Source: an uncultured Bacilli bacterium
Lineage (GTDB): Bacteria > Bacillota_I > Bacilli_A > RF39 > UBA660
DNA length: 64,000 bases
Direction: 5' to 3'
Assembly (NCBI GenBank): GCA_947594925.1
Contig: CANQEJ010000002.1
Span: forward strand, 2 to 64,001
Shown one piece after another: positions 13,113 to 44,109 of the stretch. The notes beneath the pieces are model-generated. The model was not told where the DNA came from and searched no databases. It was given only the letters and a program-made list of their open reading frames with translations. Both the position numbers and the translations under genes were made by a program. The first letter of the stretch is position 1. Each line of letters opens with the position of its first letter.

Positions 13113-13559
13113 ATGACAGAATCCCAAATAAAAGACCAAATTAATACATTAACTAACCAAAAATTGCAATATTCTACTTGGTTAAGTAATAATTTTAATA
13201 GTGATGTTTCCCTAGAAGAAAAAACTAGAGTGCAAAATACGATTGAAGAGTTAGAAAAACAAATTAATGATTTGTATGACCAGTTAAAAGCAGCCCCATA
13301 TCGTATGTCTGAAACTCCACAACCAACAGTTAATGTAGAAGCTTCTTCATATGATAATTCTACCTATGATAATGTAGCTATCCAAGCCCAAGATGAAGCT
13401 AGAACTAGATTTTATGGTATGAGTAAACTAAAACAATCTATAGCCAGAATAAATGGTAAAAAAGAAAAATTTGAGCAATTATCAAATAAAGCATATGATG
13501 CAATTTCCAAAGAAGAACAACAACAAATAGCTGGTGAGCTTAATAAAATGTTTAGGTGA
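13113..13559 (+). CDS. Hypothetical coiled-coil protein
   Basis: ORF with GAGAGG RBS; no family recognised. Confidence 0.5.
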   Translation: MTESQIKDQINTLTNQKLQYSTWLSNNFNSDVSLEEKTRVQNTIEELEKQINDLYDQLKAAPYRMSETPQPTVNVEASSYDNSTYDNVAIQAQDEARTRFYGMSKLKQSIARINGKKEKFEQLSNKAYDAISKEEQQQIAGELNKMFR

Positions 13560-13564
13560 TAATA

Positions 13565-13864
13565 ATGAGTGAACCAGAAAACTTTACTACCTATATTGAA
13601 AATTTTAAAAAATTGCCTTTAAAAGAAAAACAAAGTATCATAATTGACCAAATGAAACTTTTAGCTAAATTTACTAATAATTTATGTGAAGAATTAGGAA
13701 CTAAAAGTGAGTTAATTATGAATAAAGAATTACTTGATTTAAAAAATGAAAATTATACCGAAGATGATTTTGCGGAGGCTGTAATAGTTTTAGTAAATAC
13801 AATTCAAAACTCTTTATGTGATGCTACCGATGCGATAGCAACAATTGCTGATACAATTAATTAA
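13565..13864 (+). CDS. Hypothetical small acidic protein
   Basis: ATG 13565 preceded by AGGTGA; coupled to upstream ORF. Confidence 0.5.
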   Translation: MSEPENFTTYIENFKKLPLKEKQSIIIDQMKLLAKFTNNLCEELGTKSELIMNKELLDLKNENYTEDDFAEAVIVLVNTIQNSLCDATDAIATIADTIN

Positions 13865-13871
13865 CCCTTAT

Positions 13872-13970
13872 TTGACAAATTAGTGTAAATATGATATAAT
13901 GATAATATCAGTGGGGATTGGTTAGCAATTATATTACATCTTAAATCCTTTGCTGAAAAGGATTTTTTTG
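13872..13970 (+). promoter_or_regulatory. SigmaA promoter (TTGACA-17-TGATATAAT) plus ~65-nt leader with intrinsic terminator; copy 1 of a twin element
   Basis: Hexamers read directly; hairpin AAATCCTTT/AAAGGATTT + T-run at 13943-13969; near-identical to 39524-39624. Confidence 0.7.
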
Positions 13971-13990
13971 TTATAAAAAGGGGGATTATC

Positions 13991-14914
13991 ATGGCAAATT
14001 TAGAAGAAGATTTAATATTTGCTAGTAAACTTATTGAAGATAAGGAAAAATGTGGGGAATATTTTACTATTTTTAATCGTCTATGGCCTTTTGCTACTGT
14101 TAATATGAAAGAATACTTAGAACCTTATAATTTAGAAGGTAAAACTTGTGTAACCTTACAAGGTAGTTCTGACCATATTTTTGAACTGGCTTTAAAAAAT
14201 CCAAAAGAAATAATTGGTTTTGATATTAACCCCCTTACTGGATATTATGGCAATTTAAAAATTGCGGCTTTAAAGGCTTTAAAAACTCAAGAAGAATATT
14301 TAACTTTCTTTCGCAATAAAGGTTATTCTAATAAACTGTTTAATAAAGAAACTTTTAAAGAGATATCTAAGTATTTAGAAGGTAATGCTAAAATATTTTG
14401 GGAAGAATTATTTCAAACATATTCATCTTGGCAAATTCGCGAAAATCTTTTTAGCAAAGATGAAGGAAATTGGTCGGAAATTAAAGGTGCTTTAAATTAC
14501 ATTACCCCTGAAAATTATGCCTATTTAAAAAATAATGTTCAAAATATTAATTTTACTTTTATGAATACTGATGTTAAAGAATTAGCATCTAGACTACCTT
14601 ATAATGTCGATTTTATCACTTTATCTAATTTAATTATCTATGCGCAGGGATTGTTTCCAGAAAACACTTTAGAAAATTGGCATCGTCTCATCGAATTATT
14701 AGCTTTAAGATTAAATAAAGATGGTCATATCATAGCTGGTTATTTCTATGAGATTGAAAACGAAGATGATTATAGAGATATGTATAATAAAAAACTTCGT
14801 GATAAAATCTTTAATAGTTCTTCTTATAGTTATCATTTATTTACTAAAATGGATGATTTAGCTCGTCAAAAAACATCTTCTAATCATGATGCTACCTTAG
14901 TTTATACTAAATAA
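13991..14914 (+). CDS. DUF3419/BtaA-like SAM-dependent transferase-fold protein
   Basis: VTLQGSSDHIFELAL..IIGFDINP....NLKIAALKAL..EEYLTFF resembles the DUF3419 signature. Confidence 0.5.
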   Translation: MANLEEDLIFASKLIEDKEKCGEYFTIFNRLWPFATVNMKEYLEPYNLEGKTCVTLQGSSDHIFELALKNPKEIIGFDINPLTGYYGNLKIAALKALKTQEEYLTFFRNKGYSNKLFNKETFKEISKYLEGNAKIFWEELFQTYSSWQIRENLFSKDEGNWSEIKGALNYITPENYAYLKNNVQNINFTFMNTDVKELASRLPYNVDFITLSNLIIYAQGLFPENTLENWHRLIELLALRLNKDGHIIAGYFYEIENEDDYRDMYNKKLRDKIFNSSSYSYHLFTKMDDLARQKTSSNHDATLVYTK

Positions 14915-14987: not shown

Positions 14988-16493
14988 ATGAAAATGGCTC
15001 TTAAAAGAGGAACAGTTGTAGCAATTGGTTTACTATTACAATTATGTTTAACTTTATTTGTTTATCTAGTTTTAGGTAAATATATTAAGATAATTGGTAT
15101 CCTATATTCTATTTTAAGTATTATAATCGTCCTAGGGATTATTAAAAACAGTAAAAGATTAAGTAGTGATTTACCATGGATAATAATAATTATGATATTT
15201 CCCTTAATAGGTTCTTTAATGTATGTTATTATTGGTCGAAATATTCATCGTAGTAGACTTTTAAAAAATATTAATAAAAGTATTGAAAAAAGTAATAAAT
15301 ATTTAGTTCAAGACCCAGATATTTTAACGGAAATAAACGCAAAAGAATATGGTGATTTAAAATATATTACCGAATTTGCTCATTTTCCGATAACTAAAAA
15401 TAATCAAGTAAAATATTTTCCTTTAGGCGATGAAGCTTTTCCGGTAATGTTAGAAGAATTAAAAAAAGCCGAAAATTATATCTTTATGGAATATTTTATT
15501 ATTAATAAGGGAGAGATGTGGGGTCAAATATTAGAAATTTTAAAAGAAAAAGCTCAAGCTGGTTTAGATGTTCGTGTTATATATGATGATTTAGGTTCTC
15601 TTGCCATGTTACCAAGTGATTACCCTAAAACTTTAGAAAGTTATGGCATAAAATGTGTACCTTTTAATAAATTAAAACCTTTTGCTGGAGTGATAATGAA
15701 TAATCGTGACCATCGAAAGATGCTTATTATTGATGGTCATACAGCCTTTTCTGGAGGTATTAATATTTCTGATGAATATATTAATGTTACCCATCCGCAC
15801 GGTCATTGGAAAGATAATGGTATAATGATTAAAGGTGAAGCAGTTTGGAACTTTACAGTAATGTTTTTAAGTATTTGGAACGCTTATATTAAAACGGATA
15901 GTGATTATACAAAATTTAAATATGAATTTAAGAAAAAATATAAAGCTAATGGTTATGTAGCTCCTTATGGTGAAAGTCCTTTAGATGATGAAATTATTGG
16001 TGAAGACATATATCTTAATATCTTAAGTGAAGCTAAAAAATATGTATATATTTATACCCCTTACCTAATTATTGATACGGATATGATAAATGCTTTAATA
16101 AGATGTGCTAAAAAAGGTGTAGATGTAAGACTTGTAGTGCCAGGTATTCCAGATAAAAAAACAGTATATAGTTTAACATCTTCTTACTTTGATGTTTTAT
16201 TAAAAGGTGGCGTTAAGATATATAAATACTCTAAAGGCTTTGTCCATAGTAAAGTATTTGTAGCTGATGATAAAGTTGCAACAGTAGGTACTATCAATTT
16301 AGATTATCGTAGTCTTTATTTACATTTTGAGTGTGGTGTTTATTTAAAAGAAGTAGATGCTATTAAAGATATATGTGATGATTTTAATAAAGCCTTTAAA
16401 GATTGTCAAAAACTTACGAAAAAAGATATTAAAACTAAATTCTTTGCCAAACTATGGCAAGCTATCTTACGCTTATTTGCTCCTTTAATGTAA
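14988..16493 (+). CDS. cls: Cardiolipin synthase
   Basis: Two HKD motifs (HRKMLIIDGHTAFSGGINISDEY; HSKVFVADDKVATVGTINLDYRS) and N-terminal TM helices. Confidence 0.9.
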   Translation: MKMALKRGTVVAIGLLLQLCLTLFVYLVLGKYIKIIGILYSILSIIIVLGIIKNSKRLSSDLPWIIIIMIFPLIGSLMYVIIGRNIHRSRLLKNINKSIEKSNKYLVQDPDILTEINAKEYGDLKYITEFAHFPITKNNQVKYFPLGDEAFPVMLEELKKAENYIFMEYFIINKGEMWGQILEILKEKAQAGLDVRVIYDDLGSLAMLPSDYPKTLESYGIKCVPFNKLKPFAGVIMNNRDHRKMLIIDGHTAFSGGINISDEYINVTHPHGHWKDNGIMIKGEAVWNFTVMFLSIWNAYIKTDSDYTKFKYEFKKKYKANGYVAPYGESPLDDEIIGEDIYLNILSEAKKYVYIYTPYLIIDTDMINALIRCAKKGVDVRLVVPGIPDKKTVYSLTSSYFDVLLKGGVKIYKYSKGFVHSKVFVADDKVATVGTINLDYRSLYLHFECGVYLKEVDAIKDICDDFNKAFKDCQKLTKKDIKTKFFAKLWQAILRLFAPLM

Positions 16494-27537: not shown

Positions 27538-27577
27538 AAAAAAAGGAAATAGAAGATTTATCTATAATATATATAAT
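27538..27577 (+). promoter_or_regulatory. Conserved 40-nt promoter block (AAAAAAAGGAAAT-N3-AGATTTATCTATAATATAT-N-TAAT), copy 1, upstream of comEA
   Basis: 36/40 ungapped identity with 34696-34735; TATAAT at 27563-27568 with no TTGACA-like -35. Confidence 0.6.
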
Positions 27578-27607: not shown

Positions 27608-28351
27608 ATGGATGAAATTTTAAATTATAATAAGAAAGGTAAAAAAGTTCTTTACTTTATTGGAGCTCTTATCCTTATTTTAGGTGGTATTATCAGTTAT
27701 TTTATTATTAATAAATATGATGATAATAACGAAAAAGAAACATCTATTGCTAGTCTTACTGATGAGTTAAAAGATAGTGATACAATAGACAAAGAGGAAG
27801 ATAAAAATGAGAATGCCACTAAAGATAAAGAGGTAAAGATTAAAGTAGATATTAAAGGAGCTATTAATAATCCTGGTGTCTATGAAGTTTCCGAAGATAC
27901 CATCGTTAATGAACTTATTAATATGGCAGGTGGCCTGATGGCTAATGCAACGACAAAAAATATTAATTTAAGTCGCAAACTTCAAGATGAAATGGTAGTC
28001 ATTATATATACGGAAAATGAACTTAAAAATAAGGAAGAAATAAAAGAAGATTGTTTAGAAGATAAAGTAGATATATCTTCATGTTATGAAGAAGAAAAAG
28101 CAATTGTTGTTCCTAAGAATACTACCGAAGAGGCTGCCCAAACTCAAAGTAGTAGTGATGCTAAAGTTTCTTTAAATAAGGCCTCTAAAGAAGAATTAAT
28201 GACTTTAAGTGGCATTGGGGAAGCTAAAGCATTAAAAATAATTGCCTATCGCGAAAGTAATGATGGTTTTAAAACAATTGATGAATTAATGGAAGTAAGT
28301 GGGATAGGGGAATCTATATTTAATAAGATTAAAGAACGTCTTACACTCTAA
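27608..28351 (+). CDS. comEA: Competence DNA receptor ComEA (TM anchor, SLBB-like domain, tandem helix-hairpin-helix)
   Basis: C-terminal LNKASKEELMTLSGIGEAKALKIIAYRE..G.F..IDELMEVSGIGESIFNKIK. Confidence 0.85.
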   Translation: MDEILNYNKKGKKVLYFIGALILILGGIISYFIINKYDDNNEKETSIASLTDELKDSDTIDKEEDKNENATKDKEVKIKVDIKGAINNPGVYEVSEDTIVNELINMAGGLMANATTKNINLSRKLQDEMVVIIYTENELKNKEEIKEDCLEDKVDISSCYEEEKAIVVPKNTTEEAAQTQSSSDAKVSLNKASKEELMTLSGIGEAKALKIIAYRESNDGFKTIDELMEVSGIGESIFNKIKERLTL

Positions 28352-34695: not shown

Positions 34696-34735
34696 AAAAA
34701 AAGGAAATCAGAGATTTATCTATAATATATCTAAT
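34696..34735 (+). promoter_or_regulatory. Conserved 40-nt promoter block, copy 2, upstream of M23 peptidase gene
   Basis: 36/40 identity to 27538-27577; TATAAT at 34721-34726; same 12-nt spacing from GGAAAT. Confidence 0.6.
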
Positions 34736-34784: not shown

Positions 34785-36230
34785 TTGAAGGCCTTGTTTT
34801 TTTCTAGTTTAGTTTGTCTATGTTTTTTAGCATGTGGTGTTTTATATTCGCAAAGCGATATTGAAACAGAAAAAAGCTTAGCTACTGAAAAACTAGAAAC
34901 TAAAGCATCTAATAAAACGGAGAAGTCTATTAGTAATATTAAAGAATTAAAATATAAAAAGCTAGAAACTAAAATAACAGATAACCAGGCTTTAGAAGAA
35001 GAAAGCGTTATTGCTATTAAAAATGAAGAAAGTCCTAAAGAAATAGATGCTTCTAACGTAGAAGAACTACCAGTAGAAGAAAGTGTTCAAGAGACTAACT
35101 CTTTAGAATTAATAGATAATAATGTTGTAGAAAAAGAAGTTCCTAAAGAAGAGATAAAAGAAGAAAACGATATTGAAAAAATAAAGCAAACTATTTCCTT
35201 ATTTTCCGATTCATTAGTTAAAGCTCAAAATATCGAAGAAATAAAAAGTAATGCTTTAGATTTAGAAAATATCGATACTAGTCTATTACAAGAAACATCT
35301 ACTATTTCTAATGATTTGAAAGAAGTCCAAAATGGTTATAATAATATATTACAAGTTGATGACTTTCTAAAAAAAGCTCAAGTGTTAGATAATCCAAATA
35401 AAACTAAAGATGATGTTTTAAGTTTAAAAGCTACATTACAAAGTGCTGATATTAAAAACATTGTTCAAACAATTCCTAATGATAAACTTAAGAATAATTA
35501 TCTAACTAAACTAGCTAACGTTACTAAAATATTAGATGATGAAACTTCTCCAGAAGTTAATATTGGTGATAATCAAGTTTTAAATGATAATGTTCAGTTA
35601 GAAATAACTGATGAAAATGCATATCAAGTATACTTAAATGGCCAACTAGTAGACGACTTGAATATTACCGAAAATGGCGAATACAATCTTAAAGTAGAAG
35701 ATGAAGCATTAAATGAAACTAATATTCATTTTAAATTAGAAAAACCGGAAGAAGAGGAAGAAGAAATCATTTATACCGAGGTTTCTAACGATACCGAAAG
35801 TATTCCCGAAGAAGAAAAAGAACAAACGCGCTATCCACTTAATAATTGGTATATGACCCAAGACTATGAAGGTAAAAATGGTCATATGGGGATAGATTTA
35901 GGAAGTTCTAATAAAAAAGAAGAAATCTATCCTATAGCAGATGGCACAGTAGTCTATGTCGGGCAAGATAATTATGGTGCTAATCTAGTTCAAATTAAAC
36001 ATAATATTAATGGAGAAGAGCTTTATTCAACTTATGGACATATGAGCGAAGTTTATTTTAATAATGACCAAGAGGTTAGTCAAAATGATTTATTAGGGTT
36101 AATGGGAGCTACTGGTAATGCTACTGGTCCTCATTTGCATTTAGAAATGGCTACCTGCGGATTTGAAGCCAATTGCTCTTATGCAACATATAAAGATAAT
36201 CTTGTTAATCCTTGGGATTACTTGCCTTAA
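34785..36230 (+). CDS. Secreted M23-family (LytM-type) peptidoglycan endopeptidase with long Glu/Lys-rich N-terminal region
   Basis: Signal peptide; HxxxD (NGHMGIDLG) and HxH (GPHLHLE) M23 motifs; TTG start after AAGGAGGTGA. Confidence 0.85.
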   Translation: MKALFFSSLVCLCFLACGVLYSQSDIETEKSLATEKLETKASNKTEKSISNIKELKYKKLETKITDNQALEEESVIAIKNEESPKEIDASNVEELPVEESVQETNSLELIDNNVVEKEVPKEEIKEENDIEKIKQTISLFSDSLVKAQNIEEIKSNALDLENIDTSLLQETSTISNDLKEVQNGYNNILQVDDFLKKAQVLDNPNKTKDDVLSLKATLQSADIKNIVQTIPNDKLKNNYLTKLANVTKILDDETSPEVNIGDNQVLNDNVQLEITDENAYQVYLNGQLVDDLNITENGEYNLKVEDEALNETNIHFKLEKPEEEEEEIIYTEVSNDTESIPEEEKEQTRYPLNNWYMTQDYEGKNGHMGIDLGSSNKKEEIYPIADGTVVYVGQDNYGANLVQIKHNINGEELYSTYGHMSEVYFNNDQEVSQNDLLGLMGATGNATGPHLHLEMATCGFEANCSYATYKDNLVNPWDYLP

Positions 36231-38846: not shown

Positions 38847-39508
38847 AAAAATATCTTAAAGCTTTAATATTAGTGATTTTTTTAACTAGTATCCTTTATC
38901 TTTCTGGTTCATCTAAAGAAAAAGAACTTCCAGTTTTTAATGAAAATACGCCGAAATATGTCGCCTTAACTTTTGATGATGGACCACATTATAAATATAC
39001 CGAAATGCTTTTAGATGGTTTAAAGAAAAGAAATGTTAAAGTAACCTTTTTTGTTTTAGGTAGTAATGCTTCTAAAAATTATAATATCATAAAAAAGGCT
39101 GCTTTAGATGGTCATGTTATTGGTAATCATACATATTCACATAAAAATTTATTTCGTTTAAAAGAAGAAGAAATTTTAGAAGAAATAGATAAAACTAATC
39201 AAATAATTGAAGCAATAACTGGGACTACTCCTAAATATTTTCGTCCTAGTTATGGAAATTATAATGGTAAAATCTTAAAATTAGCTAAGATGGAAACAGT
39301 TTTATGGAACGTTGATTCACTTGATTGGAAAATAAAAAATAGTAACCAAATTACAAGAAGAGTTCTTAATAAAGTTTCAGATGGTAGTATTATTTTAATG
39401 CATGATATTTATAAAAGTAGTGTTAAGGCTGCTTTCTTAATTATTGATAAATTACAAGAAGAAGGTTATGAATTTGTAACTATAGATGAATTGCTAACTT
39501 CTAGTTAG
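38843..39508 (+). CDS. Polysaccharide/peptidoglycan deacetylase (NodB domain)
   Basis: LTFDDGP, GNHTYSH, RPSYG, LMHD motifs; signal/anchor. Confidence 0.85.
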   Translation: MKKYLKALILVIFLTSILYLSGSSKEKELPVFNENTPKYVALTFDDGPHYKYTEMLLDGLKKRNVKVTFFVLGSNASKNYNIIKKAALDGHVIGNHTYSHKNLFRLKEEEILEEIDKTNQIIEAITGTTPKYFRPSYGNYNGKILKLAKMETVLWNVDSLDWKIKNSNQITRRVLNKVSDGSIILMHDIYKSSVKAAFLIIDKLQEEGYEFVTIDELLTSS

Positions 39509-39523
39509 CTTTTTTTCATAAAC

Positions 39524-39624
39524 TTGACAAAAAAGTGTAAACATGATATAATTAAAGTACCAGTTGGGGGATTGGTTAGAGTTATTACGATATATTATTA
39601 ATCCTTTCAATTAAGGATTTTTTC
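39524..39624 (+). promoter_or_regulatory. SigmaA promoter (TTGACA-17-TGATATAAT) plus ~65-nt leader with intrinsic terminator; copy 2 of twin element
   Basis: Promoter 26/29 identical to 13872-13900; shared CAGTTGGGGGATTGGTTAG; hairpin AATCCTT/AAGGATT + T-run at 39600-39623. Confidence 0.7.
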
Positions 39625-39717
39625 TTGGTAAAATAGCCTTTTTTAGGAGGCAATTTGCAAAAAGAATACAACTATGGTAAAATGTAGTTACTCTATTAAA
39701 AAGAGAGGAATTTAATA

Positions 39718-40599
39718 ATGAAACTATTTAGAAATCCTTATTTTCAAAAAATAGGGAAGATAATGGCAGTCTTTATTTTAACTATCTTAGTAAGTGGAGC
39801 AAGTATTAAACAGATGGCAATTAAATCACAATCAAATTTACAAACCAAATATATTGCTGAAAATACTGATTTTCAAGTAGATTTACGTTTGGAAGAAGAA
39901 GTTAAAACTATTGATACATTTATTAAAGACAATGAAGAACAAATTCGTTTTTATGCTAATATGTTTGATATAGATTATGATACTGCTATAAATAAATTAA
40001 AAGAAATTAATAGTGACCCGACATTATATAATGAAAACAATATCGGTTTACTAAAAGATTCTTTTGGCAATATTTTAAGTTTTAATAGTATTGACCGTGG
40101 TATTTTAGAATTTATGAGTTCTTTAGAAACAACAAATCCTGAACTTGTAGGTTATAATTATCGTCCATGTGCAAATGATGCTGAATATATTGAAGGTTTA
40201 GTCCAATATTTTAGTTCTTTATACGATAATGTTGATTATAAATTAATGTTAAGTATTGGAGCGGCGGAAAGTGGTTATTATACTGCTAGTACTATGCTTT
40301 ATAAAAACAATATTTATGGTGGTATGGGTAGTGGTGGCCTTATTGCTTATAAAAATATCGAATATGGCGTATGGCAATACGTTAAAAGAATGAGTGAGCA
40401 ATATTATGCTAAGGGCTTAAATACCATTGAAAGCATTGGTTATGTTTTCTGCCCACGAATGGAAAATGGGGTAAAAGTTGCTAGTTCTCATTGGATTAGT
40501 TTAGTAAATAAAGCTTTAGAAACTTACAATTATGAAATTCGTTATGTTAGCATTTCTCAATTAAATGATTTAGCTAATAACGAAATAAACGAAATATAA
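39718..40599 (+). CDS. Membrane-anchored glucosaminidase-domain (LytD/FlgJ-type) protein
   Basis: SIGAAESGYYTASTMLYKNNIYGGMG resembles the mannosyl-glycoprotein endo-beta-N-acetylglucosaminidase core. Confidence 0.55.
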   Translation: MKLFRNPYFQKIGKIMAVFILTILVSGASIKQMAIKSQSNLQTKYIAENTDFQVDLRLEEEVKTIDTFIKDNEEQIRFYANMFDIDYDTAINKLKEINSDPTLYNENNIGLLKDSFGNILSFNSIDRGILEFMSSLETTNPELVGYNYRPCANDAEYIEGLVQYFSSLYDNVDYKLMLSIGAAESGYYTASTMLYKNNIYGGMGSGGLIAYKNIEYGVWQYVKRMSEQYYAKGLNTIESIGYVFCPRMENGVKVASSHWISLVNKALETYNYEIRYVSISQLNDLANNEINEI

Positions 40600-43136: not shown

Positions 43137-43230
43137 ATACTTCCTCCTTTAAATGAGCTTATAATAGCAAAATAACGTCAAATAGTAAATAATATTGTAT
43201 AAAATAAATATCTTGTGATATAATAAAAGT

Positions 43231-43376
43231 ACCTAGAGTAATAGTTTGTTTTATATAAAACCGACTAAGTGATACATTGGGAATCTAATTGCTCTTCGGT
43301 GTAGAAGACTGAGCCATTAAGTGATTCAGGATCCTAAAGAAAAGCATGTGATGCCCACCTCGCGCGAGCGGGTTTT
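43231..43376 (+). promoter_or_regulatory. Structured GC-rich 5' leader with terminator-like hairpin, unassigned class
   Basis: TGATATAAT extended -10 at 43216-43224; local hairpin TCTTC-GGTGTA-GAAGA; GC-rich hairpin CCCACCTCGCGCGAGCGGG + TTTTT at 43354-43376. Confidence 0.4.
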
Positions 43377-43422
43377 TATCACAACAGGCTATTATCTTCT
43401 AGGTTTTTATGTGGTGATTTTC

Positions 43423-44109
43423 ATGGATAGATTTCAAAGATTTAAATTATTAGTTGCATCTGATTATGATTTAATAAAAAATAAGAAAATAGCCATTATT
43501 GGGCTTGGAGGAGTAGGAGGCTATGCCTTAGAAAGTTTAATTCGTTGTGGCATTGAAAACTTTGTCTTAATTGATAATGATAAAATTGAAATAAGCAATT
43601 TAAATAGGCAAATAATTGCTTTAGAAGAAAATATTGGTTATCCTAAAGTCCAAGCTTGGCAAAAAAGAGGCTTAGCTATTAACAACGAAGCTAATATTAC
43701 AATTTATGAAGAGTTTCTTTTAAAAGAAAATATCACTCTTTTAGATAAATTTTCTCTAGATTATATAATAGATGCCTGTGATACTATAACAACTAAAATT
43801 GAACTTATTAAATATGCCAAAAAACATAATATTAAGATAATTTCTTCAATGGGTACCGGTAAAAGACTTGATGCTACTAAACTAACTATTACAACTTTAG
43901 ATAAAACTCAAAATGACCCTATTGCTAAAATAATGCGTAAGAAGTTAAAAGAAGAAAATATTTCTTTAAAAATTCCTGTTATTTGGAGTAGGGAATTACC
44001 TTTAAAAATAAAAAGTGATAATATTCCAAGCTGCTCATATGTTCCTGCTACAGCTGGCTTATTAATCACTAATTACATTATAAATGATATATTAAATCAT
44101 AAAGTATAA
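43423..44109 (+). CDS. tcdA: ThiF/HesA-family adenylyltransferase-like, TcdA (tRNA ct6A dehydratase)-like
   Basis: IIGLGGVGGYALESLIRCG...LIDNDKIEISNLNRQ; the N-terminus aligns from MDRFQRF (ATG 43423, GGTGA RBS), so the GTG 43321 start on the ORF track is probably too far upstream. Confidence 0.7.
   Translation: MDRFQRFKLLVASDYDLIKNKKIAIIGLGGVGGYALESLIRCGIENFVLIDNDKIEISNLNRQIIALEENIGYPKVQAWQKRGLAINNEANITIYEEFLLKENITLLDKFSLDYIIDACDTITTKIELIKYAKKHNIKIISSMGTGKRLDATKLTITTLDKTQNDPIAKIMRKKLKEENISLKIPVIWSRELPLKIKSDNIPSCSYVPATAGLLITNYIINDILNHKV

What the first reader, a model, noticed from the sequence alone, without database searches (positions are those of the whole stretch)
39524..39717. Twin promoter-leader element, copy 2, with an extra SD-led mini-ORF and second promoter before the glucosaminidase-like gene
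This is copy 2 of the element above: promoter 39524-39552, shared GGGGGATTGGTTAG at 39566-39579, terminator AATCCTT/AAGGATT + T-run at 39600-39623. Unlike copy 1, ~95 nt separate the terminator from the ATG at 39718. That gap contains two overlapping features.

- A strong SD (AGGAGG, 39645-39650) is followed by a 10-codon TTG mini-ORF (39655-39687, MQKEYNYGKM).
- A good sigmaA promoter, TTGCAA-17-TGGTAAAAT (39655-39683), overlaps the mini-ORF.

So copy 2 could be a stand-alone ~65-nt sRNA gene with the hydrolase expressed from P2. Alternatively it could be a two-tier leader. In either case, two copies of one short terminated transcript in a single window is unusual.
Basis: seen in the sequence. 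Interest (0 to 1): 0.6.

Follow-up and report, generated by a model that had tools for sequence, protein, structure and literature searches.

The report
Portable promoter plus switchable-terminator RNA leader
The flagged stretch is one copy of an undescribed, multi-copy cassette (strong promoter plus a 65-nt RNA that can fold as a terminator or as a competing anti-terminator) from uncultured rabbit-gut Bacilli; here it sits upstream of a cell-wall hydrolase gene that keeps its own older promoter, and the proposed mini-ORF is not real.

Summary
Copy 2 (39524-39623) and copy 1 (13872-13969) belong to a family with no Rfam match. I found 12 distinct copies in related low-GC MAGs and metagenome contigs, and contig ends from the source sample show at least two more.

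The main new result is a conserved alternative helix. The first ~13 nt of the predicted RNA (UCAAUGGGGAUU) pair with the terminator's 5' arm plus its loop (AAUCCUU-AUUGA). This helix has compensatory changes and about the same energy as the 5' hairpin plus terminator. The element is therefore a terminator/anti-terminator switch, not just a terminated transcript. Its effector is unknown.

Nine of 12 copies lie 10-20 nt before the SD of varied envelope, secreted or other accessory genes. Closely related genomes carry the cassette at different loci.

At copy 2, promoter P2 and a 5'-UTR hairpin are conserved in all 8 orthologous hydrolase loci. The cassette is absent from 6 of the 7 relatives; the seventh has it driving an extra lipoprotein gene. 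The mini-ORF's TTG is P2's -35 hexamer and the ORF is not conserved.

Verdict: a real element, a new variant of a known kind of regulation, of moderate interest.

The parts
39493..39516 (+). Intrinsic terminator of the upstream polysaccharide-deacetylase gene (GCTAACTTCTAGTTAGC + T7). It overlaps the stop codon and isolates the element as its own transcription unit.
   Evidence: 7 pairs, 3 G-C, T-run; PF01522
39524..39552 (+). Cassette promoter of copy 2: TTGACA-17-TGaTATAAT.
   Evidence: 12/12 + TG. The same promoter type sits 12-13 nt before the G-run in all 12 copies.
39559..39576 (+). Hairpin P1 at the predicted 5' end of the RNA (ACCAGUU-GGGG-GAUUGGU), the putative anti-antiterminator. 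The TSS at A39559 is inferred from promoter geometry, not mapped.
   Evidence: -6.0 kcal/mol, the most stable P1 in the family; 98.6% of cells paired, one-sided changes only
39566..39579 (+). Conserved core GGGGGAUUGGUUAG. It supplies the P1 loop and 3' strand, and the 5' strand of the anti-terminator.
39580..39596 (+). AU-rich linker. Its sequence and length vary across the family (about 11 to 37 nt).
39562..39612 (+). Span of the anti-terminator helix AT. 39562-39576 pairs with 39597-39606 and 39608-39612, which are the terminator 5' arm plus loop. AT and the terminator are mutually exclusive.
   Evidence: forced AT -11.4 against MFE -12.2 kcal/mol; family covariation
39600..39623 (+). Intrinsic terminator T: AAUCCUU / UCAAUU / AAGGAUU + U6.
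   Evidence: The stem has compensated changes in L019/L022 and in one metagenome copy.
39636..39651 (+). Small hairpin GCCUUUUUUAGGAGGC whose 3' arm is the 'SD' AGGAGG. It is specific to this genome. It may be a relic of a lost cargo gene's ribosome-binding site or of an old terminator (inference).
   Evidence: fold; absent in relatives
39655..39683 (+). P2, the conserved ancestral promoter of the hydrolase gene (TTGCAA-17-TGGTAAAAT).
   Evidence: conserved in 8 of 8 orthologous loci
39655..39687 (+). TTG mini-ORF (MQKEYNYGKM). Judged spurious: its start is the -35 of P2 and it is not conserved.
39690..39709 (+). Conserved 5'-UTR hairpin of the hydrolase mRNA (ACUCU AUUAAAA AGAGAGGA) that includes part of the SD.
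   Evidence: ACUCU/AGAGA, ACUCA/UGAGA and CACUC/GAGUG variants keep the pairing
39718..40599 (+). Membrane-anchored 293-aa protein. Its homologues hit Pfam Glucosaminidase (PF01832) only below threshold.
13872..13969 (+). Copy 1 of the cassette. Promoter 13872-13900, predicted TSS A13907, core 13912-13925. Terminator AAAUCCUUU 13943-13951 / GCUGA / AAAGGAUUU 13957-13965 + U7.
   Evidence: 68.9 bits
13980..16493 (+). Cargo of copy 1: SD GGGGGA 13980-13985, a DUF3419 protein (13991-14914) and a cardiolipin-synthase-like PLD protein (14988-16493). No other promoter lies between the cassette and these genes.

Best explanation
Copy 2 belongs to a family of portable 'promoter + attenuator leader' cassettes. 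A consensus sigma-A promoter starts a transcript whose first ~18 nt can form a small hairpin, P1 (AUCAAU-GGGG-AUUGGU). After a non-conserved AU-rich linker comes a weak intrinsic terminator, T (AAUCCUU-loop-AAGGAUU-U6/7).

The same 5' nucleotides (UCAAUGGGGAUU) can instead pair with the terminator's 5' arm and loop (AAUCCUU+AUUGA). This 11-13 bp anti-terminator, AT, excludes T. The layout is the classical three-helix one: P1 as anti-antiterminator, then AT, then T. U residues in the shared strands can pair with either G or A, so each strand can serve two partners.

Termination yields a ~65-nt RNA. AT formation lets RNA polymerase read into the downstream gene.

Shown: the two alternative helices and their co-variation, the multi-copy and patchy distribution, and the position directly before the SD of cargo genes.

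Inferred: the TSS; that P1 acts as an anti-antiterminator; and that some factor binding or masking the G-rich 5' segment sets the T/AT ratio. That factor could be a protein, a small ligand or a C-rich RNA. I favour a protein-type or RNA-type factor over a metabolite, because the linker carries no conserved aptamer.

At this locus the cassette was placed upstream of the hydrolase's own conserved promoter P2, or its cargo gene was later lost. Here it either adds a regulated read-through tier to P2 or makes only the short RNA. Copy 2 has the most stable P1, so it is biased toward termination. The mini-ORF is an accident of P2's -35 TTG.
For: Family and architecture:
- 12 distinct copies share promoter, core, linker, terminator and usually an SD 10-20 nt later.
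- Covariance-model scores are bimodal: 59-80 bits for copies against <=22 bits for everything else in about 425 kb.
- The G-run sits 12 nt after the -10 in 10 of 12 copies. It sits at 13 nt in L008, whose -10-to-hairpin stretch is 1 nt longer, and in w2, which has an inserted U; w2 and L005 also carry a fifth G.

AT helix:
- It is the MFE fold in 7 of 12 copies, and in all 12 nascent RNAs before the 3' arm is made.
- 93.7% of cells are paired. Four pairs and 7 cells change on both sides. The covariation score is 0.186 against 0.111 in shuffles (0 of 500 reach it). Slid registers pair only 31-60%.
- Examples: CAGU:GCUG, CUGAU:AUCA/AUCG, AGCAAU:AUUGUU.
- These distal pairs were not constrained by any search pattern.
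- The invariant G.U pairs are legal only in RNA of this strand.

T helix:
- 93.6% paired.
- A-U to U-A compensation in L019/L022 and U-A to A-U in a metagenome copy.
- U6-7 follows the stem in every fully sequenced copy.

Energies: mean P1+T is -9.7 and mean AT is -10.1 kcal/mol.

Cis role: 9 of 12 copies have no other promoter before the cargo SD.

Locus-specific: P2 is conserved in 8 of 8 orthologous loci. The cassette is absent in L023, L026/27, L028, L029, L030 and L031. In L024/25 it is present with a lipoprotein cargo.

Patchiness:
- MAG CANQNZ has the cassette at DUF3419 but not at the hydrolase (L008, L023).
- The ERZ27249129 genome has the reverse (L025, L154).
Against: - No transcript data exist. 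No RNA runs were found, so the TSS, termination and read-through are all unverified.
- No effector has been identified.
- The terminator is weak (2 G-C pairs, -5.5 to -9.1 kcal/mol). It may terminate poorly, or only with NusA/NusG.
- P1 has only one-sided changes, all transitions. It is compatible with the data but not proven.
- The sample is small and related: 12 sequences from perhaps 6-8 genomes. Ten were found with patterns that fixed the 13-nt core, and 8 of those also fixed AATCCTT, so the invariance of the core and 5' arm is partly ascertainment. Contig ends show variants (GGGGGAAUUUGGAC, GGUUGG).
- Three of 12 copies lack a directly abutting cargo: w2, L006 (second promoter) and L015 (convergent terminator). 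This fits a stand-alone RNA as well.
Confidence: 0.62

Rival explanations
1. The element is a stand-alone trans-acting small RNA gene, one of a set of sibling sRNAs. The ~65-nt terminated RNA is the product. Its G-rich 5' hairpin is a seed, or a sponge for C-rich partners. Downstream genes are only incidentally read through.
For: - Each copy has its own perfect promoter and a terminator.
- Three of 12 copies have no abutting cargo: w2, L006 and L015.
- Copy 2 is identical in a second sample, so it is stably kept.
- Copy 2 is energetically biased toward P1+T.
Against: - Nine of 12 copies sit 10-20 nt before an SD with no other promoter, so those genes need read-through.
- A conserved, co-varying helix that destroys the terminator has no obvious role for a pure sRNA.
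- No complementary target stood out in the window.
Confidence: 0.2
2. The element is a reused ('mobile') strong promoter with a constitutively leaky terminator that merely damps expression. The AT pairing is a by-product and nothing is sensed.
For: - The same promoter-leader sits upstream of non-homologous genes and is present or absent at orthologous loci in close relatives.
- This matches 'promoter reuse' (PMC3575422).
- The terminator is weak.
- No aptamer-like conservation is seen in the linker.
Against: - Compensatory changes maintain AT and T while the linker diverges freely.
- P1+T and AT are kept near iso-energetic in most copies. Both points argue for selection on a switch rather than on a fixed leak.
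Confidence: 0.13
3. The element is a leader-peptide or mini-ORF-based control. The candidates are the first reader's TTG ORF (39655-39687) or the 4-codon RUG-GGG-AUU-GGU-UAR frame inside the core.
For: - AGGAGG lies 4 nt before the TTG.
- Ten of 12 cores read AUG/GUG GGG AUU GGU UAG/UAA, and the one change at the stop is UAG to UAA.
Against: - The TTG ORF is not conserved and coincides with the -35 of P2.
- The core frame is broken by an extra G in w2 itself and in L005.
- The core frame has no SD and only about a 4-nt leader.
- It shows no synonymous variation.
Confidence: 0.03
4. The element is a DNA-level repeat, such as a MITE/REP-like unit or a recombination site, with no RNA function.
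For: - It is multi-copy and patchy, and it contains inverted repeats.
- The cargo gene differs between the near-identical strains L019 and L022.
Against: - The helices rely on invariant G.U pairs that would be mismatches in DNA or on the other strand.
- Every copy carries an oriented consensus promoter at a fixed distance and a U-tract.
- There are no terminal repeats or target-site duplications.
- No copies were found in viral contigs.
Confidence: 0.02

Closest known systems
PyrR-dependent pyr operon attenuators of Bacillus subtilis (three-helix anti-antiterminator / antiterminator / terminator leaders). The comparison rests on established knowledge; Rfam RF00515 was tested here.
   Same: Both have three overlapping helices. 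A 5' hairpin has a 3' strand that is also the 5' strand of the antiterminator, and the antiterminator's 3' strand is the terminator's 5' arm. Stabilising the 5' hairpin would favour termination.
   Different: The element lacks the PyrR binding-loop consensus. The only RF00515 hit is 16 bits on the wrong strand against a gathering score of 54. The cargo is envelope, secreted and other accessory genes, not pyr genes. The whole switch is only about 65 nt and starts at the very 5' end. The effector is unknown.
pyrG leader (Rfam RF02371), where a G-rich 5' end pairs with the C/U-rich 5' strand of the terminator. The mechanism is from established knowledge.
   Same: In both, a G-run near the transcript's 5' end pairs, with G.U wobbles, to the pyrimidine-rich terminator 5' arm and prevents termination.
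   Different: In pyrG the extra G residues are added by reiterative transcription at a +1 GGGC start when CTP is low. Here the G-run is templated and begins about 7-8 nt into the predicted transcript. There is no GGGC start. The only Rfam hit is 17 bits against 65 and lies in a different place.
Promoter reuse / putative mobile promoters in prokaryotes (Nijveen, Matus-Garcia, van Passel 2012, PMC3575422)
   Same: Highly similar promoter-containing upstream regions lie in front of non-homologous genes. Their presence or absence differs at orthologous loci among close relatives.
   Different: The reused unit here is not just a promoter. It includes a complete structured leader with a terminator/anti-terminator switch. 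The mechanism of spread is unknown, and no transposase or terminal repeats are present.
Riboswitch or leader-derived small RNAs that also act in trans, and multi-copy sibling sRNAs (general knowledge)
   Same: Both give a short terminated transcript from a strong promoter, and several near-identical copies occur per genome.
   Different: No trans target, no chaperone and no known family match were found. Most copies are positioned as 5' leaders.

Membership tests
Any Rfam 15 family | Covariance-model match at or near the family's gathering score | tested here: not met
   The whole window at gathering threshold gives only 6S RNA at 43227-43409. E-value scans of both copies give only 12-17 bit noise hits.
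Intrinsic (Rho-independent) terminator | Stem-loop immediately followed by a U-tract | tested here: met
   The stem is 7-10 bp and is followed by U6-7 in all 12 copies. The stem has compensated changes in L019/L022 and in a metagenome copy. It has only 2 G-C pairs, so the simple scan misses it. Function was not tested.
Transcription attenuator (terminator/antiterminator switch) | Conserved alternative helix that overlaps the terminator's 5' arm and is mutually exclusive with the terminator | tested here: met
   The AT helix is 93.7% paired, with 4 pairs changed on both sides. Covariation is 0.186 against 0.111 (0 of 500 shuffles reach it), and slid controls pair 31-60%. It is the MFE fold in 7 of 12 copies.
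Transcription attenuator (terminator/antiterminator switch) | Anti-antiterminator hairpin that sequesters the AT 5' strand | tested here: inconclusive
   P1 is 98.6% paired, but all changes are one-sided transitions against an invariant 3' strand. Its energy is only about -2.5 kcal/mol, or -6.0 in copy 2.
Transcription attenuator (terminator/antiterminator switch) | An identified sensor (leader peptide, RNA-binding protein, tRNA or ligand) | not testable with these tools
   No RNA-seq run is available.
PyrR attenuator (RF00515) | PyrR binding-loop motif in the anti-antiterminator | tested here: not met
   The only hit is 16.1 bits on the minus strand against a gathering score of 54.
pyrG leader (RF02371) | GGGC initially transcribed sequence at +1 followed by a terminator whose 5' strand pairs with the added poly-G | tested here: not met
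   The G-run begins about 12-13 nt after the -10, which is about 7-8 nt into the predicted transcript. The Rfam hit of 17 bits against 65 lies at 39688-39744, outside the element.
T-box leader | Stem I with specifier loop, plus the conserved T-box 14-mer in the antiterminator bulge | tested here: not met
   No T-box hit appears even at E<=10. The linker is 11-37 nt and unconserved.
Metabolite riboswitch | Conserved ligand-binding aptamer upstream of the expression platform | tested here: inconclusive
   Only about 13-19 nt are conserved, and all of them are helix strands of the switch. The linker is not conserved. A very small or unconventional aptamer cannot be excluded.
Leader-peptide attenuation / functional mini-ORF | Conserved SD-led short ORF | tested here: not met
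   The TTG ORF at 39655-39687 coincides with the -35 of P2 and is not conserved. The core RUG-GGG-AUU-GGU-stop frame is broken in w2 and L005.
Trans-acting sRNA gene | Own promoter and terminator, independent of a downstream gene; identifiable targets | tested here: inconclusive
   Promoter and terminator are present in all copies. Only 3 of 12 copies lack an abutting cargo. No target was found in the window.
Reused / putative mobile promoter (PMC3575422) | Homologous promoter region upstream of non-homologous genes | tested here: met
   The cargo genes are a DUF3419+PLD operon, repeat lipoproteins, a thioester-domain adhesin and unrelated secreted or unknown proteins. Orthologous loci occur with and without the cassette.

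The most novel reading that the evidence does not exclude
The cassette may be a new class of minimal, portable riboregulator. A ~65-nt leader would have a sensor consisting only of its G-rich 5'-terminal hairpin (GGGGAUUGG), read by an as yet unknown protein, C-rich RNA or small ligand. It would spread as a unit with its promoter among fast-evolving surface, envelope and other accessory genes of a reduced-genome gut Bacilli lineage, and so define a regulon that is rewired by cassette gain and loss.
Probability: 0.2. Interest if true: 0.7.

Novelty: new variant of a known kind. Interest (0 to 1): 0.5.

Why it matters
If the switch works as inferred, it is a very compact terminator/anti-terminator leader: about 65 nt, no leader peptide and no recognisable aptamer. 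It travels together with its promoter.

This would be a concrete example of regulatory rewiring by reuse of a whole promoter-plus-leader module. It occurs in an uncultured gut lineage where almost nothing is known about gene regulation.

It also gives a defined handle for finding the unknown effector: the invariant G-rich 5' hairpin and a small envelope or surface-protein cargo set.

For annotating this window, three corrections follow:
- The hydrolase is driven by its own conserved promoter P2.
- The mini-ORF should not be annotated.
- The DUF3419/cardiolipin-synthase operon depends on read-through of copy 1.

Tried and rejected
- Rfam, at gathering threshold on the whole window and at E<=10 on both copies, gave no family.
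- A literature string search for the core motif returned only unrelated hits.
- A viral-contig scan for the 14-mer returned more than 116 hits. The 117 occurrences screened lack the cassette architecture, and the recurrent ones lie in what looks like a conserved, unrelated phage coding region.
- I looked for RNA sequencing runs and found none. Only rabbit-gut DNA metagenomes hold the sequence.
- I looked for diverged copies in about 425 kb of related loci with two covariance models and found none between 22 and 59 bits. Model R1 was built with a mis-registered structure string. I used it only as a sequence model and to make alignment A6. R2 has the correct structure.
- More distant DUF3419 orthologues (51-67% identity; L032, L033, L036, L037) and the 82% orthologue (L154-157) lack the element.
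- I looked for a gene family that always accompanies the element, as a candidate regulator. There is none. Only cargo paralogues recur.
- I looked for C-rich complements of the core in the window, as a candidate antisense partner. Nothing convincing turned up.
- Duplex energy of the core with a generic 16S 3' tail is -7.9 to -10.9 kcal/mol. That is SD-like but not discriminating.
- A global alignment of the copy-2 region with the L024 region, meant to find deletion scars of a lost cargo gene, was uninformative.
- RAT/LicT, ANTAR, CsrA-site, preQ1-I and fluoride-riboswitch resemblances were considered from memory. I dropped them because the linker is unconserved and no Rfam model matches.

Full report
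**1. Observation**

- Promoter: TTGACA (39524-29), 17-nt spacer, TG, TATAAT (39547-52). The promoter scan rates it 12/12 with an extended -10.
- Core: GGGGGATTGGTTAG at 39566-79.
- Terminator: AATCCTT (39600-06), loop TCAATT, AAGGATT (39613-19), and a T-run to 39623.
- A 94-nt gap to the ATG at 39718. It holds AGGAGG (39645-50), a TTG mini-ORF (39655-87) and TTGCAA-17-TGGTAAAAT (39655-83; 9/12 plus TG).

Copy 1 lies at 13872-13969 with the same layout. It sits directly before the SD and ATG of a DUF3419 gene, which is followed by a cardiolipin-synthase-like gene.

The repeat is not chance.
- The 14-mer occurs twice at <=2 mismatches, against 0.09 expected.
- A covariance model scores the two copies at 61 and 69 bits, and nothing else in the window above 19 bits.

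The deacetylase gene upstream of copy 2 has its own terminator at 39493-39516. The element is therefore an independent transcription unit.

**2. Not a known family, but a family**

Rfam gives only a 6S RNA in the window (43227-43409). E-value scans of both copies give only noise.

A pattern scan of one genome per species found 8 further copies. All are in low-GC MAGs labelled 'uncultured Bacilli' (rabbit gut) or 'uncultured Tenericutes', and one MAG has four copies. A promoter+core scan of metagenome contigs added two distinct copies, from three loci. Synteny walking added one more, in L024/L025.

The window itself comes from a rabbit gut metagenome.

All 12 distinct copies share these features:
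- a consensus -35, a 17-nt spacer and an extended -10;
- a G-run beginning 12 nt after the -10 in 10 of 12 copies; it begins at 13 nt in L008, whose -10-to-hairpin stretch is 1 nt longer, and in w2, which has an inserted U (w2 and L005 also carry a fifth G);
- the core;
- an AU-rich linker of variable sequence and length;
- the AAUCCUU...AAGGAUU stem and U6-7.

In 9 of 12 copies an SD and start codon follow 10-20 nt later, with no other promoter in between.

Model searches over about 425 kb of related DNA are cleanly bimodal: 59-80 bits for copies against <=22 bits for everything else.

*Caveat on ascertainment.* Ten of the 12 copies were found with patterns that fixed the 13-nt core, and 8 of those also fixed AATCCTT. 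The apparent invariance of the core and 5' arm is therefore partly built in. Contig ends from the source sample show two further copies at about the same depth as the window's contigs:
- one has the core GGGGGAAUUUGGAC;
- one has GGUUGG, an ~11-nt linker and the stem AAUCCUA/UAGGAUU.

**3. The main new finding: a conserved alternative helix**

Folding each copy shows a second possible structure. The first ~13 nt of the predicted RNA (UCAAUGGGGAUU) can pair with the terminator's 5' arm plus its loop (AAUCCUU-AUUGA). This helix (AT) cannot coexist with the terminator (T).
- AT is the MFE structure of the complete short RNA in 7 of 12 copies.
- It is the MFE structure of all 12 nascent RNAs before the 3' arm is made.

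On the model-made alignment A6:
- AT is 93.7% paired.
- Four pairs, in 7 cells, change on both sides.
- Covariation is 0.186 against 0.111 in shuffles (0 of 500 reach it).
- Slid registers pair only 31-60%.

Compensations:

| Copies | 5' strand | Terminator loop |
|---|---|---|
| w1, L008 | CAGU | GCUG |
| L011, L015 | CUGAU | AUCA / AUCG |
| L002 | AGCAAU | AUUGUU |
| L006 | first-nucleotide G | C |
| w2 | inserted U and G | loop UCAAUU and a third U in the arm |

These distal pairs lie outside every search pattern I used.

The invariant G.U pairs (GGGG:CCUU) are legal only in RNA of this strand. That argues against a DNA-level inverted repeat.

T itself is 93.6% paired. It has compensated changes in L019/L022 (A-U to U-A; their 3' arm is 2 columns out of register in A6) and in the metagenome copy (U-A to A-U).

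The 5' hairpin P1 (AUCAAU-GGGG-AUUGGU) is 98.6% paired. All of its changes are one-sided transitions, so it is compatible with the data but not proven.

Energies:

| Structure | kcal/mol |
|---|---|
| P1 | about -2.5 (-6.0 in copy 2) |
| T | -5.5 to -9.1 |
| AT | -6.5 to -13.5 |
| P1+T, mean | -9.7 |
| AT, mean | -10.1 |

The two states are close to iso-energetic.

**4. Mechanism**

The layout is the classical three-helix attenuator. P1 is the anti-antiterminator, AT the antiterminator and T the terminator. U residues in the shared strands pair with G in one state and with A in the other.

Shown:
- the alternative helices and their co-variation;
- the position in front of cargo genes.

Inferred:
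- the TSS (A39559 and A13907, 7 nt after the -10), which places P1 and AT at the very 5' end;
- that whatever stabilises or masks the G-rich 5' segment decides between termination (a ~65-nt RNA) and read-through.

I could not identify the effector.
- The linker has no conserved aptamer.
- No gene family always accompanies the element.
- No C-rich partner was seen in the window.
- SD-likeness of the core is unremarkable.
- No RNA data exist.

**5. Cargo and evolution**

Cargo genes are varied, fast-evolving accessory genes, most of them for the cell envelope or secreted:
- the DUF3419 + PLD/cardiolipin-synthase operon (w1, L008);
- repeat lipoproteins (L012, L024);
- a thioester-domain, sortase-type adhesin (L006);
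- secreted proteins of unknown function (L005, L011);
- unknown proteins (L019, L022).

L019 and L022 have 99-100% identical flanks but strongly diverged cargo.

Presence is patchy among close relatives.
- MAG CANQNZ has the cassette before DUF3419 (L008) but not before the hydrolase (L023).
- The ERZ27249129 genome has it next to the hydrolase with a lipoprotein cargo (L025). Before DUF3419 it has an ordinary promoter, while keeping the same GGGGGAUUU SD (L154).
- More distant DUF3419 orthologues lack it.

This matches 'promoter reuse' (PMC3575422). Here the reused unit includes a whole structured leader.

**6. What this means for copy 2**

All 8 orthologous hydrolase loci keep P2 (AATTTG -35, 17 nt, T(G)nTAtAAT). 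They also keep a 5'-UTR hairpin that includes part of the SD and shows pair-preserving variants.

Six of the 7 relatives have intergenic regions of 48-121 nt with no cassette. L024/L025 has the cassette, but there it drives an extra 272-aa lipoprotein gene, and P2 follows that gene.

P2 is therefore the ancestral hydrolase promoter. The cassette is an addition in this genome, either inserted without cargo or left behind after cargo loss.

The mini-ORF is not supported.
- Its TTG is the -35 of P2.
- The in-frame codons are not conserved.
- AGGAGG is unique to this genome and is the 3' arm of a small hairpin.

Copy 2 keeps a full AT (-11.4 against -12.2 kcal/mol), and its insertions are compensated. 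It is identical in a second sample. It therefore looks functional rather than decaying. Its P1 is the strongest in the family, so it should terminate more often than the other copies.

Whether it adds a regulated read-through tier to P2 or serves as a stand-alone RNA cannot be decided without transcript data.

**7. Comparison and verdict**

The element works like PyrR-type three-helix attenuators. In the G-rich 5' end pairing to the terminator's pyrimidine arm, it resembles the pyrG leader. It fails the defining features of both families, and also those of T-box, known riboswitches and leader-peptide attenuation (see the membership table).

I rate it a new variant of a known kind of regulation: real, undescribed and of moderate interest. 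Its main open question is the effector.

Noticed in passing
window 43227-43409 (+): A 6S/SsrS RNA matches at 47.5 bits, just above the Rfam gathering score of 46.4. An ORF called at 43321-44109 overlaps it.
   Followed up: no
window 27538-27577 and 34696-34735 (+): A second 'twin' upstream element: a 40-nt stretch, 90% identical (AAAAAAAGGAAAT..AGATTTATCTATAATATAT.TAAT). It lies before two unrelated genes, a 247-aa ORF at 27608 and the ORF at 34785-36230 (its orthologues in related loci carry Peptidase_M23). It may be another reused promoter or operator.
   Followed up: partly
window 39690-39709; L023, L024, L026, L028, L029, L030, L031 upstream of the hydrolase: A conserved 5'-UTR hairpin contains part of the hydrolase SD. 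The ACUCU/AGAGA, ACUCA/UGAGA and CACUC/GAGUG variants keep the pairing. It could be an mRNA stabiliser or a translational control element.
   Followed up: partly
L019:3358-4131 versus L022:3481-4242: Two contigs have 99-100% identical flanking genes. The gene directly downstream of the cassette, however, is recognisably similar only at its N-terminus. This suggests a cargo under rapid diversification or replacement.
   Followed up: partly
window 13113-13864: Two ORFs of 148 and about 100 aa, with no Pfam match, lie between serS and copy 1. They are absent in L008 and L154, where serS is directly upstream. This is an insertion specific to this genome.
   Followed up: partly
Run X4 contig laid on window 13871-13905: A contig carries a near-identical promoter (5 differences over 35 bases) followed directly by AGGAGG and ATG, with no leader. 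The promoter part therefore also occurs without the RNA switch.
   Followed up: no
L024:10001-10930: The gene caller's 309-aa hydrolase start (MIKYAYSIKKERKLM-) runs through P2 and the 5'-UTR hairpin. The conserved start is probably the downstream MKLFRNPY, so the annotated N-terminus is likely over-extended.
   Followed up: no
Viral contig loci, e.g. L041, L043, L047: The exact 14-mer TGGGGATTGGTTAG recurs in many viral contigs within a highly conserved stretch that appears to be a phage coding region. The cassette architecture is absent, so this is a coincidence and unrelated.
   Followed up: yes
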